From a virus, in IMG/VR virus record IMGVR_UViG_3300010413_000009, positions 17,629 to 81,628 of that record: a DNA stretch of 64,000 nt; one strand, written 5' to 3'. Position 1 is the stretch's first letter. Each line of letters opens with the position of its first letter. A program made the position numbers and the translations under genes. Shown piece by piece: positions 59,064 through 62,027 of the stretch. The notes under the pieces were generated by a model that did not search any database, was not told the DNA's origin, and was given only the letters and a program-made list of their open reading frames with translations.

Positions 59064-59191
59064 TGTACCCCCGTGGAGTCGAACCACGAACCCACAGTTT
59101 TCAACGAGCACAGATGCGCAGCGGCCCGTGGCGGGCAAGTGGATTGACATCCAACTACAGCTGTTGCTCTGCCGTCTTGAGCTAGGGGTAC
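59064..59191 (-). ncRNA. Y-RNA-like tRNA mimic (128 nt) with a roughly 55-60-nt insertion in place of the anticodon arm. The alternative reading is an intron-containing tRNA-Tyr (GTA).
   Basis: Perfect 7-bp acceptor GTACCCC/GGGGTAC, D-arm GCTC-AAGACGGCA-GAGC, T-arm CGTGG-TTCGACT-CCACG; it lies 1.1 kb from the Ro60 gene on the same strand. Confidence 0.5.
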
Positions 59192-59278
59192 AAAAAAGGT
59201 GCGGTAGACGCGTGGCGACTACCGCACCTGGCGGCCAACCAACTTGGGTTGAACCAGTCTACTGGATGCTTTGTTAAA

Positions 59279-59397
59279 CGGCGCCGCTAGGATTCGAACC
59301 TAGACTTCTCGTTTAACAGACGGGAACACTCCACCTGCCGACCCTGCAAGATGAGGAATTGGCAAAGCATAATGTGCTACCGTTACACCACAGCGCC
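59279..59397 (-). ncRNA. Second Y-RNA-like tRNA mimic (119 nt) with a roughly 65-nt insertion in place of the anticodon arm.
   Basis: Acceptor GGCGCTG/CGGCGCC (one GU), D-arm GTGT-AACGGTA-GCAC, T-arm CTAGG-TTCGAAT-CCTAG. Confidence 0.5.
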
Positions 59398-59399
59398 AA

Positions 59400-59496
59400 A
59401 GCCCGGGATTGGGGTCGAACCAACGATAAACCTACGTCCGGTCGATCCTTAAAGGGTGTGGTAAGGAGCAGGTAAGCTCCCAATGAGCACCCGGGC
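59400..59496 (-). ncRNA. tRNA-like RNA (97 nt) with a non-canonical central region.
   Basis: Perfect acceptor GCCCGGG/CCCGGGC, D-arm GCTC...GAGC, T-arm GTTGG-TTCGACC-CCAAT. Confidence 0.4.
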
Positions 59497-59561
59497 AAAT
59501 TGGGCGTGTGTGCCGCGCAGCTTTTCTTGACCATACGAGTAGACTGCGCTTCCGTCCCAAA

Positions 59562-59612
59562 GATCAGAGGAGAGGAGTCGGACCTCTCGAGCGTACCAAC
59601 TACGCCCCTGAT
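59562..59612 (-). ncRNA. Mini tRNA-like element (51 nt: acceptor, one hairpin, T-arm with a TCCGACT loop).
   Basis: ATCAGGG/CTCTGAT acceptor pairing, GCGTA-GTTGG-TACGC hairpin, GAGAGG-TCCGACT-CCTCTC. Confidence 0.3.
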
Positions 59613-60311
59613 GTTTGTATTGTAATTGGTTTCCATAAGGAGGTCGAGTGGGTCACAGCGGATTTAGCGGTGTTAGGAACGATAATCCGCGGCGTCCGGC
59701 CCTTAGGAAAGTTTTTCTCGTCAAAGTAACAGACGGTCGTGGTGAAGTGATGCACGGTGGGAACCGTTTGAATGACGATGAACGTGCTACACATCCGTAC
59801 CGAATGTATTGGTGGGTCGAGGCACGGCAAGACACGTACAGGATCGCTTTGAAGCAACGGTAATGTCATGCCTTCGGACCCAAATGCGCGCAAAGCCATT
59901 TCTGACTTTGCGTGCACGCGAAGTTTCGCGGGGGCCACCCTATTCAGGAGGCCGAGTGGGGATGCGAGGACTTTCACCTCGCGCAGAACTACACTCGAGA
60001 TGTGCGTGTGTGTCCTGGCATCCCCAGGGCGCGATGCGCGTTGCCGGCCGTCGGAGGGCCCTGCCAACACCGCAACACCGCGCAGTTGTCTCCTACATGG
60101 CTTCACCTCCAGTTAGACTAGCGATGGATTCCATGTCGAGAACACTGATCATCCGTCCCTTGCCAGCAGACCATCTGCCGGGCCCTTGGTCGTGTTGAAA
60201 ACCAGCGTTTTATTTGAGACTGCGAACAGCAGCCTCGGCGTCACTCTATAATGCCACGAAATCTGCAGGATTTCAAGGCCCTCCTAGGCCGATTGTGGCA
60301 TGAGAGTGCCG

Positions 60312-62027
60312 CTATTGCCTTGCGAAGTCGGCCATCACAGGCGGAACCGACGCGTCAAACCCGACGACATCCAGCATGCCGGCGTCCTTCGGGTCCGCGA
60401 TGGTGAACCTGTTTGACGTCATCCCGAGGACGATCAGTTTGGCCGGTATTCCCATCTTTTCGCGATACATGCGTAGCGCCTGGAATGGGTGTATTCTGCC
60501 GGCCCATGTCTCGTTGTCCGTGTAGACAGCGAAAACATCCACGGGAATCTTGTGCTCCAACGCATGCATCATCGGCAGCGCACAATCCGTGCGTCCGAAA
60601 TTGCGATTGGACATCGTAGCGACGACTGCGTCCAAACGGGATTTGGCCGAAAATCCCGCTACCCTCTTTTGACTACCGTAGTAGGTATGCACGGTAGCAT
60701 TCTTCGTCAGGTCGACGAATGTTTCGCAGAATCCATGGCAATACCACAGCGATTCCGTTCGCATTGTCACCATGGCCATCGCGCCGGCAGCCTCGCAGCA
60801 CGATAGGTTTGTGCCGGCGATAGAGCTGCTCATGCTTCCGCTGACGTCGAGGCCCAGCAACCAGCGCTTGCCGGTGGGCTCCACGCTGTCGAACGCCAGG
60901 TAAAAGGCGCTGTCCAACGCGTCGACGACTTGCGGTACTGGCTTCCATTCCAGCTTACCCCGGAATCCCCGCCCGGCCGCGTACGTCTTGAGGGCCAACA
61001 GGATCGCCATCGGATGGAGCCGCGCGTGCTTGATAAGCTCCTGGTTACCCAGGCGCTCGCATACGGTTTTCACGGCATCCGACATCGGAGCGATCAGTTC
61101 GATGTTGGTCATCTTGGCCAGGTTGCGCACCATGGCGCCCAGTGGCATCTTGACCAGCAGCGCTTCCCAGACCTTCTTCGAGTTGAGGTACTCGGTGGGA
61201 ATGCATTCGCGGACGAGATCGTGATCGCGAATCAGCCGCAGGATTTCCTGTTCGCTTGTGGCCTTCCTGGCCTGTTCCGCGGCGGCGATTAGCCGACGAT
61301 GCCCCTTCTCGTCCTGTAGCCACTGGTTGTAGTTGCTCCCAGCATTTATCTGTGTGTACAACGCTGCGCGCTTCTCATCGACCGTCTCGTCATCGTCGGC
61401 GTTCACAAGCTTGCGGGCTGCGTATGCCAATACCTCCCGGAGGTCTGGGTCCGTAGCCTTAGGATGTGCACGTCGCAGGGCGTCGGCATGGGTCTCGCCG
61501 CCGCGCTGCTTGTACTTGACGAGTTGGTACGCCAACGCACGGGCATCCTTGCTCGTGTACCAATTGGAAACCGCTTCGCGCAGCAATCTGCCCCAGCCCC
61601 GGAACTGCTCGATGTCAGCGAGAAACTCGAAGAGATGAGTTCCGGTACGGCAGACACGAGGCATGCCCGCAAGTGCGAGCTTACGTACCTCTTTGTCGTT
61701 GTGGCCCGCCAGATAGGCGAGCGCGAAGATACACGGAGCTTGCTTCGGTGCGCGCCCCGCTTCGGACACTGCGACGATCTGATCTACCAACCGTCGCCCG
61801 TCCTCCCGCGCGCAGGCATCCAAGACGCCTACGTTCTCCTTAGTGAGCTTACGCTCGCCGATGTAATAGGTTCCGCCCTCGGCACCGAGGATGAGGAACC
61901 GCTCAAGCCGCTTCCACTTATCGAGCGCGAAGGAAAATCCTCCGGCCGAGTTAGCGACTTGATCATCGCGGGCGCTCTCGCTCTGGGGTGTGACCCGCCG
62001 GCTTGTGTGAGCAGCGTATTTGCTCAC
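60312..62027 (-). CDS. rsr: Ro60/Rsr orthologue (TROVE domain plus C-terminal vWA/MIDAS domain).
   Basis: GGFSFALDKWKRLERFLILGAEGGTYYIGERKLTKEN matches the Ro60 TROVE signature ([23 protein letters not shown]); C-terminal LLGLDVSGSMSSS is a MIDAS DxSxS motif. Confidence 0.75.
   Translation of the reverse strand: MSKYAAHTSRRVTPQSESARDDQVANSAGGFSFALDKWKRLERFLILGAEGGTYYIGERKLTKENVGVLDACAREDGRRLVDQIVAVSEAGRAPKQAPCIFALAYLAGHNDKEVRKLALAGMPRVCRTGTHLFEFLADIEQFRGWGRLLREAVSNWYTSKDARALAYQLVKYKQRGGETHADALRRAHPKATDPDLREVLAYAARKLVNADDDETVDEKRAALYTQINAGSNYNQWLQDEKGHRRLIAAAEQARKATSEQEILRLIRDHDLVRECIPTEYLNSKKVWEALLVKMPLGAMVRNLAKMTNIELIAPMSDAVKTVCERLGNQELIKHARLHPMAILLALKTYAAGRGFRGKLEWKPVPQVVDALDSAFYLAFDSVEPTGKRWLLGLDVSGSMSSSIAGTNLSCCEAAGAMAMVTMRTESLWYCHGFCETFVDLTKNATVHTYYGSQKRVAGFSAKSRLDAVVATMSNRNFGRTDCALPMMHALEHKIPVDVFAVYTDNETWAGRIHPFQALRMYREKMGIPAKLIVLGMTSNRFTIADPKDAGMLDVVGFDASVPPVMADFARQ

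What the first reader, a model, noticed from the sequence alone, without database searches (positions are those of the whole stretch)
59064..62027. Ro60 (Rsr) orthologue with adjacent Y-RNA-like tRNA mimics
The 571-aa protein at 60312..62027 has the Ro60 TROVE signature (FSFALDKWKRLERFLILGAEGGTYYIGERKL) and a C-terminal vWA MIDAS motif (DVSGSM). Directly downstream on the same strand there are no credible ORFs.

Instead there are at least two RNAs, of 128 nt and 119 nt, each with a perfect or near-perfect 7-bp acceptor stem, canonical D-arm and T-arm, and a 55-65-nt insertion replacing the anticodon arm. That is the architecture described for bacterial Y RNAs (YrlA-type tRNA mimics), whose genes sit next to rsr. 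Two further smaller tRNA-like RNAs (97 nt and 51 nt) follow.

This looks like a complete Ro60-Y RNA RNP module carried by the virus.
Basis: partly seen in the sequence, partly recalled or inferred. Interest (0 to 1): 0.75.

Follow-up and report, generated by a model that had tools for sequence, protein, structure and literature searches.

The report
Phage Ro60 with Y-RNA array
A large uncultured phage encodes a Ro60 protein followed by a 1.7-kb array of about a dozen small structured RNAs. Some are ordinary Y-RNA hairpins. Others are tRNA-shaped RNAs that carry the Ro60-binding helix where the anticodon arm should be, an arrangement not described before.

Summary
The ORF at 60312-62027(-) is a Ro60 orthologue (Pfam TROVE plus vWA_Ro60). 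Downstream on the same strand lie four tRNA-like elements of about 48, 96, 118 and 127 nt, each with a 7-bp acceptor stem.

The elements are not YrlA members. Rfam YrlA finds nothing, and the arm order is the circular permutation of YrlA. The ends lie in a true acceptor stem. The Ro-site helix (C-GCCC / GGGC-C-G) is closed by a 3-6-nt loop at the tip of the arm that replaces the anticodon arm. UUAUCG, a small hairpin and the T arm follow.

It also missed a Yrn1-like RNA (S5) that contains the window's '31st tRNA'. A promoter-like site invariant in five aligned relatives directly follows the Ro60 stop codon.

Six syntenic relatives and one unrelated viral contig share this architecture, with strong covariation. 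Models built without the window's sequences recover W3 (90 bits), W4 (55 bits), S3 and S1.

The plain hairpins are new members of a known kind; similar ones flank Ro60 in cultured actinophages. The tRNA-order form is a new variant. Ro60 binding and expression are untested.

The parts
60312..62027 (-). Ro60 (Rsr) orthologue, 571 aa, with TROVE ring and vWA domain (MIDAS motif DVSGSM)
   Evidence: Pfam TROVE 5e-43 and vWA_Ro60 7e-63. Homologues at 61-69% identity lie in syntenic phage contigs.
60248..60276 (-). Sigma-70-like promoter, TTGAAA-17-CATTAT with TG before the -10. It starts 36 nt after the Ro60 stop codon and probably drives the RNA array.
   Evidence: Promoter scan. TGAA and GGCATTATA.AGT are invariant across the five aligned loci.
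60137..60159 (-). S0: the first copy of the Ro-motif 5' strand (GGGACGGAUGAUCAGUGUUCUCG). Its 3' partner is not resolved.
   Evidence: Motif scan. An orthologous first module, GGGCCGG..GGUUAUCGCAUGA, is present in all relatives.
59957..60026 (-). W0: a 70-nt stable hairpin or tRNA-like element (UGGGGAU/AUCCCCA ends, T-arm-like GCGAGG-UGAAAGU-CCUCGC). It has no Ro motif.
   Evidence: MFE -32.9 kcal/mol, z -4.5, 0 of 200 shuffles fold as well. The aligned position in relatives has a T-arm-like hairpin plus a 7-bp terminal stem (read from the sequence).
59813..59882 (-). S1: plain Y-RNA hairpin. GGGUC[C]GA[A]GGCAU pairs with GUGCC-UC-GACCC, and UUACCG starts the loop.
   Evidence: The MFE fold gives exactly this bulged helix, z -2.3. 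R3, built from relatives only, scores it 16.9 bits, E 0.045.
59733..59803 (-). S2: plain Y-RNA hairpin with a bulged A, CGGU[A]CG / CGACCG, and upper stem GCACG/CGUGC
   Evidence: MFE fold. It occupies the position of the 'GCAAC..GACCGCA' class in relatives, whose upper stems covary. The same bulged-A variant occurs in L001.
59640..59704 (-). S3: plain Y-RNA hairpin, GGGCCGGACGCCGCGGAUUAUCG ... AUCCGC ... CACUCGACC
   Evidence: R3 (relatives only) scores it 34.1 bits, E 1.5e-6, the best hit in the 64-kb window. Orthologues in L003 and L004 hit the nematode sbRNA family RF01656 weakly.
59564..59611 (-). W1: a minimal tRNA-like element with a 7-bp acceptor, a short D-like hairpin and a T arm. 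It has no anticodon arm and no Ro arm. It may serve only as a processing signal.
   Evidence: Acceptor 7/7, T arm AGAGG-UCCGACU-CCUCU. It sits where relatives have a full 123-139-nt tRNA-order element.
59500..59562 (-). S4: plain Y-RNA hairpin, GGG[A]CGG..GCGCAG / CUGCGC..CACACGCCC
   Evidence: MFE fold; upper stem pairs 6 of 7.
59401..59496 (-). W2: short tRNA-order Y RNA. It has an acceptor, a small hairpin in place of the D arm, a Ro arm (CACCC-UUUAA-GGAU[C]GA) and UUAUC running directly into the T arm.
   Evidence: R2 scores it 27.6 bits. Orthologues are L011 4388-4510, L003 7820-7912, L009 6830-6927 and L005 7980-8068.
59280..59397 (-). W3: full tRNA-order Y RNA. It has a 7-bp acceptor, a D arm, a Ro arm closed by the loop UGCA (C-AUCU / GGGU-C-G), UUCCCG, a hairpin with a 7-nt loop, and a T arm.
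   Evidence: R2 (relatives only) scores it 90.1 bits, E 5e-20, over the full model length. It is part of the A3 covariation analysis.
59192..59228 (-). Intrinsic-terminator-like hairpin, GGUGCGGUAG-11 nt-CUACCGCACC followed by U6. It directly abuts W4.
   Evidence: Read from the sequence. L003 has an equivalent hairpin plus U5 before its W4 orthologue. The simple scan missed it because the loop is longer than 8 nt.
59065..59191 (-). W4: full tRNA-order Y RNA. Acceptor GUACCCC/GGGGUAC, D arm GCUC..GAGC, Ro arm closed by the loop GCCAC (U-GCCC / GGGC-C-G), T arm.
   Evidence: R2 (relatives only) scores it 54.7 bits, E 2e-11. ARAGORN -i can call it only as 'tRNA-Ser(tga) with a 54-nt intron' and without the long variable arm.
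58929..59061 (-). S5: Yrn1-like Y RNA. A terminal Ro helix, GAUCGGGU[C]GA / ACCCGAUC, encloses UUUUCG, a hairpin, and D-like, anticodon-like and T arms. It contains the ARAGORN 'tRNA-Thr(tgt)' at 58952-59023.
   Evidence: MFE -45.5 kcal/mol, z -3.1. It is conserved in L003, L005 and L011, and partly in L009, where the 3' strand was not captured. One terminal-helix pair covaries. Rfam tRNA scores it 31.3 bits with four mismatched acceptor pairs.
58606..58750 (-). W5 (tentative): the last tRNA-like element of the array. T arm GAAGG-UUCGACU-CCUCU; terminal stem GCGAGGU/CCCUCGC pairs 6 of 7.
   Evidence: Relatives have a 70-75-nt tRNA-like element with a GGAGG-UUCGAUU-CCUCC T arm at the same end of the array. 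Not analysed further.

Best explanation
This is a phage Ro60-Y RNA module in an expanded form. A Ro60 gene is followed by its own promoter and a polycistronic array of about a dozen structured RNAs.

Shown:
- The RNAs come in three layouts built around one conserved Ro60-site helix: 5' GGGC-[C]-G pairs with 3' C-GCCC, and UUAUCG follows the upper stem.
- (a) Plain stem-bulge hairpins, S0-S4.
- (b) tRNA-order RNAs, W2-W4. They have a real 7-bp acceptor stem, a D arm and a T arm. The arm in the anticodon position is a Y-RNA stem whose Ro site sits at the tip, closed by a 3-6-nt loop.
- (c) A Yrn1-like RNA, S5, whose terminal Ro helix encloses D-like, anticodon-like and T arms.

Inferred:
- Host RNase P and 3' tRNA-processing enzymes cut at the tRNA-like ends. 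That would release both the tRNA-order RNAs and the hairpins lying between them.
- Phage Ro60 binds the bulged helix of each RNA.
- By analogy with the Ro60-Y RNA-PNPase complex of D. radiodurans and Salmonella, and with Thermus phage phiLo, the second module of each RNA tethers Ro60 to a host partner. That partner could be PNPase or, for the L-shaped domain, a tRNA-binding protein. The RNP would then degrade or remodel structured RNA during infection.
- Relative to YrlA, the tRNA-order form is the circular permutation that leaves a free acceptor end.
For: - Ro60 identity.
- Synteny: six relatives have the same gene-free 1.3-1.8 kb after Ro60.
- Promoter: invariant in the five aligned loci.
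- Motif: 28-fold enriched in the array; 0 of 2000 simulations reach the observed count.
- Plain hairpins: the closing pair of the Ro helix covaries (AU 8, GC 5, CG 3, UA 2). There are 19 distinct upper-stem 7-mers in 21 modules. Each pairs with its own partner at 6.19 of 7, against 5.10 for other modules' partners. 38% are perfect against 3.3%.
- tRNA-order structure, 15 sequences: 94.9% of cells paired against 40-45% when the partners are slid. All 7 acceptor pairs covary and are 100% paired.
- Tertiary-core nucleotides are invariant: U8, A14, the GG of the D loop, and GGUU..A.UCC of the T arm.
- Independent models recover W3, W4, S3 and S1.
- The same alternating layout occurs beside a Ro60 only 45% identical, on an unrelated IMG/VR contig.
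- The plain-hairpin model also hits intergenic DNA beside Ro60 and tRNA genes in the cultured actinophages Sixama and Yaboi.
- The relatives' hairpins resemble the Rfam nematode sbRNA consensus on both strands.
- YrlA's conserved YUAY corresponds to UUAU here (PMC4201824; 10.1101/312249).
- Phage Ro60 binds phage Y-like RNAs and host PNPase in phiLo (PMC12135203).
Against: - There is no expression, processing or binding data for any of these RNAs.
- No Rfam Y RNA or YrlA model reaches its threshold in the window. Hits to the sbRNA family in relatives are below the gathering score (E 0.05-1.6).
- The window's own copies are more degenerate than the relatives'. Several have a mismatch in the 4-bp Ro helix. 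S2 and S4 are not found by R3, and their fold z-scores are only about -0.8 to -1.0.
- It is not known whether Ro60 accepts a Ro helix closed by a loop instead of free termini.
- A terminator-like hairpin precedes W4, so the array may be more than one transcript.
- No PNPase or RNA-repair gene was seen in the ten window proteins scanned.
Confidence: 0.7

Rival explanations
1. The tRNA-shaped elements are intron-containing tRNA genes. The Ro-like arm is excised, the remaining hairpin is the anticodon arm, and the products decode codons.
For: - Removing the arm would leave a 72-76-nt cloverleaf with a 4-bp stem, a 7-nt loop, and a 4-5-nt variable region before the T arm.
- The loop often has U at the position-33 equivalent and a purine at the position-37 equivalent.
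- ARAGORN -i and the Rfam tRNA model can thread them: 23.5 bits in the window, 37.7 bits in L003.
Against: - The 'anticodon' differs in every orthologue of one syntenic element (CAU, UCG, GUG, UGA, CAC, CAG) while the acceptor, D and T arms stay alike.
- The first stem pair is a conserved mismatch, forced by the UUAUCG motif.
- The short class (W2 and its orthologues) has no such hairpin at all.
- The insert lies between the D arm and the hairpin, not at 37/38. It is far too short for a group I intron. From general knowledge, no bacterial enzyme is known to remove such inserts.
- The insert is the conserved part. It carries the same motif as the stand-alone hairpins next to a Ro60 gene.
Confidence: 0.05
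2. The tRNA-like parts serve only as RNase P/Z punctuation or as decoys for host tRNA-targeting nucleases. The plain hairpins would then be the only true Ro60 ligands.
For: - W1 and W0 are tRNA-like or rod-like elements without any Ro motif.
- In Gordonia phage Sixama, hairpin-type modules sit between genuine tRNA genes.
- In D. radiodurans, Yrn2, a tRNA and Yrn1 are made as one precursor (PMC4201824).
- The hairpin loop is hypervariable, as might be expected of a decoy.
Against: - The Ro-site hairpin inside the tRNA-order elements is conserved, with the bulged C and the flanking G-C pair. 89% of cells are paired even in a MAFFT alignment with register slips.
- It recurs beside a Ro60 only 45% identical.
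- Punctuation alone would not need it.
Confidence: 0.12
3. The elements are decaying tRNA pseudogenes, or chance look-alikes, in a non-coding spacer.
For: - The window's copies carry mismatches.
- One element (W1) has lost its arm relative to its orthologues.
- Single-sequence folds of W3 and W4 are not better than shuffles (z -0.3 and -1.0).
Against: - The architecture is conserved across eight loci with Ro60 at 45-69% identity.
- All acceptor pairs covary.
- Independent model E-values are 5e-20 and 2e-11.
- The promoter-like site is invariant in the five aligned loci.
Confidence: 0.02

Closest known systems
YrlA (Rfam RF02553; Salmonella, M. smegmatis, mycobacteriophages)
   Same: - Encoded beside Ro60.
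- A GNCGAA-like Ro motif on the 5' strand of a long stem.
- YUAY (here UUAU) at the junction with the tRNA-like domain.
- An optional V hairpin.
- D and T arms with the tRNA tertiary-core nucleotides.
- In M. smegmatis, a 7-bp acceptor stem cut by RNase P, followed by CCA addition.
   Different: - The layout is circularly permuted. YrlA's termini lie in the Ro stem and its acceptor-like stem is a closed hairpin, with the T arm before the D arm.
- Here the termini lie in the acceptor stem, the D arm comes before the T arm, and the Ro stem is closed by a 3-6-nt loop.
- Both strands of the Ro helix are recognisable here, whereas only the 5' strand is in YrlA.
- There is no RF02553 hit.
D. radiodurans Yrn1 and Yrn2
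   Same: - S5 has Yrn1's layout: a terminal Ro helix replaces the acceptor stem and is followed by D-like, anticodon-like and T arms.
- Both strands of the Ro helix are retained.
- Several Y RNAs are made from one locus together with tRNA(-like) units.
   Different: - There are about a dozen units rather than two to five.
- They lie downstream of Ro60 rather than upstream.
- W2-W4 have no counterpart in D. radiodurans.
Metazoan Y RNAs and nematode stem-bulge RNAs (Rfam RF00019, RF01656)
   Same: - A stem-bulge-stem hairpin.
- 5' GG(U/G)CCG(A/G) with a single bulged nucleotide.
- An upper stem followed by UUAUC.
- 3' strand CAC..ACU(C/U)G(A/C)CC.
- Weak RF01656 hits in L001, L003 and L004 (24-27 bits).
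   Different: - All hits are below the gathering score (38 bits).
- No hit to either family at E<=10 in the window's array.
- The resemblance may reflect the shared Ro60 binding surface rather than descent.
Thermus phage phiLo phiRo60 with Yrl1 and Yrl2 (NAR 2025, PMC12135203)
   Same: - A phage-encoded Ro60 with adjacent Y-like RNAs.
- This gives experimental precedent for phage Ro60 binding such RNAs and assembling with host PNPase.
   Different: - PhiLo has two RNAs, upstream of the gene, defined by a CGAA motif in a bulge.
- That paper does not use the terms 'tRNA-like' or 'YrlA' in its text.
Circularly permuted tRNA genes (red alga, archaea) and two-piece tmRNA
   Same: They are precedent that tRNA-shaped RNAs exist in both circular permutations.
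   Different: Those are matured into canonical tRNA or tmRNA. Here the canonical order is the unusual one for a Y RNA, and no decoding role is indicated.

Membership tests
Ro60 / Rsr protein | TROVE (HEAT-repeat ring) domain | tested here: met
   PF05731, 5.2e-43, residues 25-345.
Ro60 / Rsr protein | C-terminal Ro60-type vWA domain with a MIDAS motif | tested here: met
   PF25045, 7.3e-63, residues 388-569. DVSGSM is in the translation.
Y RNA (general) | Encoded within a few kb of Ro60 on the same strand | tested here: met
   The array starts 36 nt after the stop codon, on the same strand, in the window and in six syntenic relatives. L158 also has the array downstream on the same strand, after an intervening ORF.
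Y RNA (general) | Bulged helix with a conserved 5' strand (GGUCCGA or GNCGAA type) paired to the 3' strand | tested here: met
   GGGC[C]G / CGCCC is present in 17 aligned hairpins from relatives and in most of the 20 tRNA-order elements identified. The closing pair covaries. The window's copies have variants: GGGUC[C]GA, CGGU[A]CG, GGG[A]CGG.
Y RNA (general) | Bound and stabilised by Ro60 | not testable with these tools
   Needs EMSA or co-immunoprecipitation.
Y RNA (general) | Match to curated Rfam Y RNA or sbRNA models | tested here: inconclusive
   Nothing at E<=10 in the window's array. RF01656 scores 23.7-26.7 bits (gathering score 38) in L001, L003 and L004, always next to Ro60.
YrlA (RF02553) | tRNA-like D and T arms with tertiary-core nucleotides | tested here: met
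   U8, A14, the GG of the D loop and the GGUUCRAnUCC T arm are invariant or nearly so. D and T stems are 98-100% paired, with covariation.
YrlA (RF02553) | Conserved YUAY between the Ro-linked stem and the V loop | tested here: met
   UUAUCG / UUACCG / UUCUCG follows the arm in nearly all modules.
YrlA (RF02553) | Order Ro 5' strand, V, T arm, closed acceptor-like hairpin, D arm, Ro 3' strand, with the termini in the Ro stem | tested here: not met
   The order is acceptor 5', D, Ro 3', loop, Ro 5', UUAUCG, hairpin, T, acceptor 3'. The neighbouring acceptor strands of W2 and W3 are not complementary.
YrlA (RF02553) | Covariance-model match | tested here: not met
   No RF02553 hit at E<=10 in window 58500-60500, nor at E<=5 in L003-L006. 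The mycobacteriophage control L002 is hit at 28.8 bits.
Decoding tRNA, including intron-containing | Cloverleaf with a 7-bp acceptor stem and D and T arms | tested here: met
Decoding tRNA, including intron-containing | Anticodon arm whose anticodon is conserved among orthologues | tested here: not met
   There are six different triplets in six orthologues. The hairpin is absent in the short class, and its first stem pair is a conserved mismatch.
Decoding tRNA, including intron-containing | Intron of a known type at a known position | not tested
   The insert is 40-65 nt and lies between the D arm and the hairpin. No bulge-helix-bulge or group I search was run.
Yrn1-like Y RNA (applies to S5 only) | Terminal Ro helix in place of the acceptor stem, enclosing D-like, anticodon-like and T arms in tRNA order | tested here: met
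   MFE fold z -3.1. A five-sequence alignment keeps the terminal helix, the hairpin after UUAUCG and the T arm.

The most novel reading that the evidence does not exclude
[quoted passage not shown] Their free acceptor end would let them dock Ro60 onto translation or tRNA-handling machinery.

Tandem arrays of such units would also be the ancestral state from which permuted YrlA arose, as the junction of two neighbouring units. That is the 'dimeric tRNA' origin model. In the window, the Ro strands of W2 and W3 cross-pair better than they pair within each unit, which hints at such an alternative register.

A more remote reading is that Ro60, these RNAs and the co-resident major-vault-protein homologue form a vault-like particle.
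Probability: 0.15. Interest if true: 0.85.

Novelty: new variant of a known kind. Interest (0 to 1): 0.62.

Why it matters
- Ro60 is a conserved RNA-surveillance protein and a human autoantigen. What the tRNA-like half of bacterial Y RNAs does is still unknown.
- This is a natural set of Y RNAs in which the same Ro-binding helix is wired into three topologies. One of them has a free, RNase P-competent acceptor end.
- Two open questions become directly testable: whether Ro60 needs free helix termini, and whether the tRNA-like domain engages tRNA enzymes or the ribosome.
- The tandem tRNA-order units are also the arrangement that the 'dimeric tRNA' model for the origin of YrlA would predict.
- About a dozen Y RNAs behind one phage Ro60 gene suggests that phages use Ro60 RNPs more heavily than the one or two RNAs known so far imply.
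- It also gives an annotation lesson. At least one 'tRNA' call here, Thr-tgt at 58952-59023, is part of a Y RNA.

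Tried and rejected
- Rfam at gathering and permissive thresholds finds no Y_RNA or YrlA hit in the window.
- Single-sequence MFE folding, with or without acceptor and T-arm constraints, gives inconsistent middle domains. It cannot define the arm by itself.
- ARAGORN without -i finds none of the elements in the window or relatives. With -i it gives implausible calls: Ser without a long variable arm, and Gly with an intron at 39/40.
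- The coding alternative for 59600-60106 is rejected.
- A Ro60 peptide-pattern scan found one distant locus in IMG/VR and none in 185,579 reference genomes.
- Two exact-pattern scans of IMG/VR for the loop-closed Ro site returned mostly chance matches. 0 of 80 and then 1 of 80 loci passed model R2, so prevalence is not measured.
- MAFFT could not align the upper stems of the hairpins consistently. R3 was therefore built with the Ro helix only, and upper-stem covariation was tested with an ungapped script.
- The tRNA-order form was sought in seven cultured Ro60 phages: ScoobyDoobyDoo, Sixama, Phosso, Yaboi, Cashline, Sparky and FuzzBuster. It was not found. Cashline 2746-2888 has the order D, Ro motif, T. 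However, three of its seven acceptor pairs are mismatched and a 21-nt gap sits at the Ro site. That looks like neighbouring standard YrlA units.
- The 2020 Annual Review on bacterial Ro60 could not be read, so an earlier description of the tRNA-order form cannot be fully excluded.

Full report
**Context.** The window is part of a large phage. It carries a gpA-type large terminase, an NAD-dependent DNA ligase and 30 tRNA genes at 17-41 kb. No deposited phage is close: the best Ro60 match is 46% identical.

**The protein.** The ORF at 60312-62027(-) is a Ro60 orthologue. It matches Pfam TROVE at 5e-43 and vWA_Ro60 at 7e-63.

**The observation.** Four tRNA-like elements with 7-bp terminal stems lie on the - strand.
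- W1: 59611-59564, 48 nt.
- W2: 59496-59401, 96 nt.
- W3: 59397-59280, 118 nt.
- W4: 59191-59065, 127 nt.

The small ones precede the large ones. Two mechanical ORFs overlap the region. The 168-aa ORF has no translated match in any relative, and the 107-aa ORF has only a weak 36-aa patch in L011, over the RNA elements. Rfam gives no Y RNA or YrlA hit at E<=10. It gives only a weak tRNA hit inside W3 and the 'tRNA-Thr' at 58952-59023.

**Relatives.** Ro60 homologues at 61-69% identity led to six syntenic loci: L003, L004, L005, L006, L009 and L011. Each has the same 1.3-1.8-kb gene-free stretch after Ro60. Where the contig extends far enough, the same downstream genes follow. Aligning these stretches showed a motif repeated 6-11 times per locus, GGGCCGG(A)-N9-GG(G/A)UUAUCG. 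In the window a looser form occurs 8 times in 1.4 kb, against 0.2 per kb elsewhere. None of 2000 Markov simulations reached 8.

**Plain hairpins (S-type).** Their layout is:
- 5' N-GGGC-[C]-GG.. then an upper stem, then UUAUCG and a loop.
- then the upper stem's other strand, CAC/CUC, and GCCC-N'.

The closing pair covaries: AU 8, GC 5, CG 3, UA 2. The upper stem has 19 distinct 7-mers in 21 modules. Each pairs with its own partner at 6.19 of 7, against 5.10 for other modules' partners. 38% are perfect against 3.3%.

The window has S1 (59882-59813), S2 (59803-59733), S3 (59704-59640) and S4 (59562-59500), plus a first motif copy, S0, at 60159. All four fold into the expected bulged hairpin in MFE predictions.

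Model R3 was built only from relatives. In the whole 64-kb window it finds S3 (34.1 bits, E 1.5e-6) and S1 (16.9 bits, E 0.045), plus one weak match elsewhere (22065-22124, 10.4 bits, E 2.2). It also hits intergenic DNA beside Ro60 and tRNA genes in Gordonia phage Sixama and Streptomyces phage Yaboi. This layout is therefore the ordinary phage or bacterial Y RNA kind. Relatives' copies resemble the Rfam nematode sbRNA consensus on both strands, scoring 24-27 bits, below threshold.

**tRNA-order RNAs (T-type).** Twenty elements were identified in seven loci. The 17 that could be parsed share this plan:
- a 7-bp acceptor stem and a D arm;
- a strand ending ..C-GCCC, a 3-6-nt loop, then GGGC-[C]-G..;
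- UUAUCG, an optional 4-bp hairpin with a 7-nt loop, and 4-5 nt;
- a T arm and the acceptor 3' strand.

The Ro-site helix therefore sits at the tip of the arm that replaces the anticodon arm, closed by a loop. The 7-mer before UUAUCG pairs with sequence just after the D arm.

On a 15-sequence alignment, 94.9% of cells pair, against 40-45% when the partners are slid. All seven acceptor pairs covary and are 100% paired. [quoted passage not shown] The Ro helix is 89% paired despite register slips in the alignment. U8, A14, the D-loop GG and the T arm are conserved.

R2, built without window sequences, scores W3 at 90.1 bits and W4 at 54.7 bits over the full model. True tRNAs reach at most 41 bits by skipping the arm.

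**Comparison with YrlA.** Chen et al. 2014 (PMC4201824) and Wang et al. 2018 (bioRxiv 10.1101/312249) describe YrlA as follows. The order is Ro 5' strand, YUAY/V, T arm, closed acceptor-like hairpin, D arm, Ro 3' strand. In their words it is a circularly permuted tRNA lacking a free CCA end.

The phage T-type has the same parts: Ro motif, UUAU, V-like hairpin, and D and T arms. It has them in the opposite permutation, with a free acceptor end. Rfam YrlA hits a mycobacteriophage control (28.8 bits, T before D) but none of these loci. The elements work like YrlA but fail its defining topology.

**A third layout, S5 (59061-58929).** A terminal Ro helix, GAUCGGGU[C]GA / ACCCGAUC, encloses UUUUCG, a hairpin, and D-like, anticodon-like and T arms. 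The fold z-score is -3.1. It is conserved in L003, L005 and L011, and partly in L009. This is the D. radiodurans Yrn1 arrangement. The ARAGORN 'tRNA-Thr(tgt)' is its interior, which explains that call's four mismatched acceptor pairs.

**Transcription signals.** TTGAAA-17-CATTAT at 60276-60248(-) starts 36 nt after the stop codon. It is invariant in the five aligned loci. A terminator-like hairpin with U6 at 59228-59192 abuts W4, and L003 has an equivalent.

**Are they intron-containing tRNAs?** This is unlikely.
- The triplet in the small hairpin differs in all six orthologues of one syntenic element: CAU, UCG, GUG, UGA, CAC, CAG.
- The first stem pair is a conserved mismatch.
- The short class lacks the hairpin.
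- The conserved part is the 'insert'.

**Distribution.** The T-type was not found in seven cultured Ro60 phages. It does occur three times, alternating with S-type hairpins, downstream of a Ro60 only 45% identical on IMG/VR contig L158. It is therefore not private to one clade. Prevalence was not measured.

**Mechanism.**
- Shown: the architecture, its conservation and its covariation.
- Inferred: transcription from the conserved promoter; release by RNase P and 3' tRNA-processing enzymes at the tRNA-like ends; Ro60 binding to each bulged helix.
- Also inferred: tethering to host PNPase or to a tRNA-binding effector. This rests on analogy with the Ro60-Y RNA-PNPase complex (PMC4201824) and with Thermus phage phiLo (PMC12135203).

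**Verdict.** The S-type RNAs are new members of a known kind. The tRNA-order form, and the size of the array, are a new variant. No description of either was found in the papers that could be searched.

Noticed in passing
window 30902-33544 (-): An 880-aa ORF inside the tRNA cluster is a major-vault-protein homologue. It matches Pfam MVP_shoulder at 82.5 bits and Vault_3 at 31.9 bits.

Its homologues and the Ro60 homologues share the same longest-contig lengths, 101,415 and 226,656 bp. That points to the two genes lying on the same contigs in two lineages.

Homologues at about 42% identity occur in 462-735-kb uncultured huge phages. Others at about 44% occur in Myxococcota/Kofleriaceae MAGs.

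A vault protein beside a TROVE protein and many small RNAs is suggestive. No functional link was tested.
   Followed up: partly
window 58952-59023 (-): The ARAGORN/Rfam 'tRNA-Thr(tgt)' has four mismatched acceptor pairs. It is the interior of the Yrn1-like Y RNA S5, so it is probably not a decoding tRNA. A normal tRNA-Thr(tgt) exists at 36638-36712.
   Followed up: yes
window 36208-36283 (-): ARAGORN calls a tRNA with an 8-nt anticodon loop (four-base anticodon 'cagg') next to tRNA-Glu(ctc). It could be a frameshift-suppressor-like tRNA or a miscall.
   Followed up: no
window ~60095-60113 (-); L003, L004, L006 equivalents: After the first Ro-motif copy there is a conserved Shine-Dalgarno-like GGAGG followed by AUG. 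The ORF behind it is 1 codon in the window (AUG UAG), 2 codons in L003 and about 30 codons in L004 and L006. It may be a start-stop element or just part of an RNA structure.
   Followed up: no
window 59448-59340 (-) (Ro strands of W2 and W3): The Ro strands of neighbouring units cross-pair better than they pair within each unit. W2's GGAU[C]G pairs 4 of 4 with W3's C-AUCU but 3 of 4 with its own C-ACCC. W3's GGGU pairs 4 of 4 Watson-Crick with W2's ACCC. The cross-pairing would give a YrlA-order fold that excludes the two acceptor stems.
   Followed up: partly
L013 (Gordonia phage Sixama) 3180-3243, 6012-6081, 6582-6652; L248 (Streptomyces phage Yaboi) 5009-5074: Unannotated Y-RNA-like hairpins flank Ro60 and lie between annotated tRNA genes in cultured actinophages. 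R3 scores range from 10.9 to 37.8 bits. They offer an experimental system for the plain hairpin class.
   Followed up: partly
L001 6749-7097: The 205-kb IMG/VR contig with a Ro60 44% identical carries a tmRNA gene (Rfam 100.8 bits) about 1.2 kb downstream of Ro60. An sbRNA-like hairpin lies about 300 nt upstream of Ro60 (3602-3694).
   Followed up: no
L003-L012, upstream of Ro60: In the six relatives whose contigs extend far enough upstream, a 653-667-aa glycosyltransferase family 9 protein lies about 1.5-2.6 kb upstream of Ro60. The equivalent region of the window lies beyond its end.
   Followed up: no
window 60195-60315 (-): In the window, the promoter region after the Ro60 stop codon can also fold into a very stable hairpin (-50.5 kcal/mol, z -4.9). 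The stem is not obviously kept in relatives. It may double as the Ro60 terminator.
   Followed up: no
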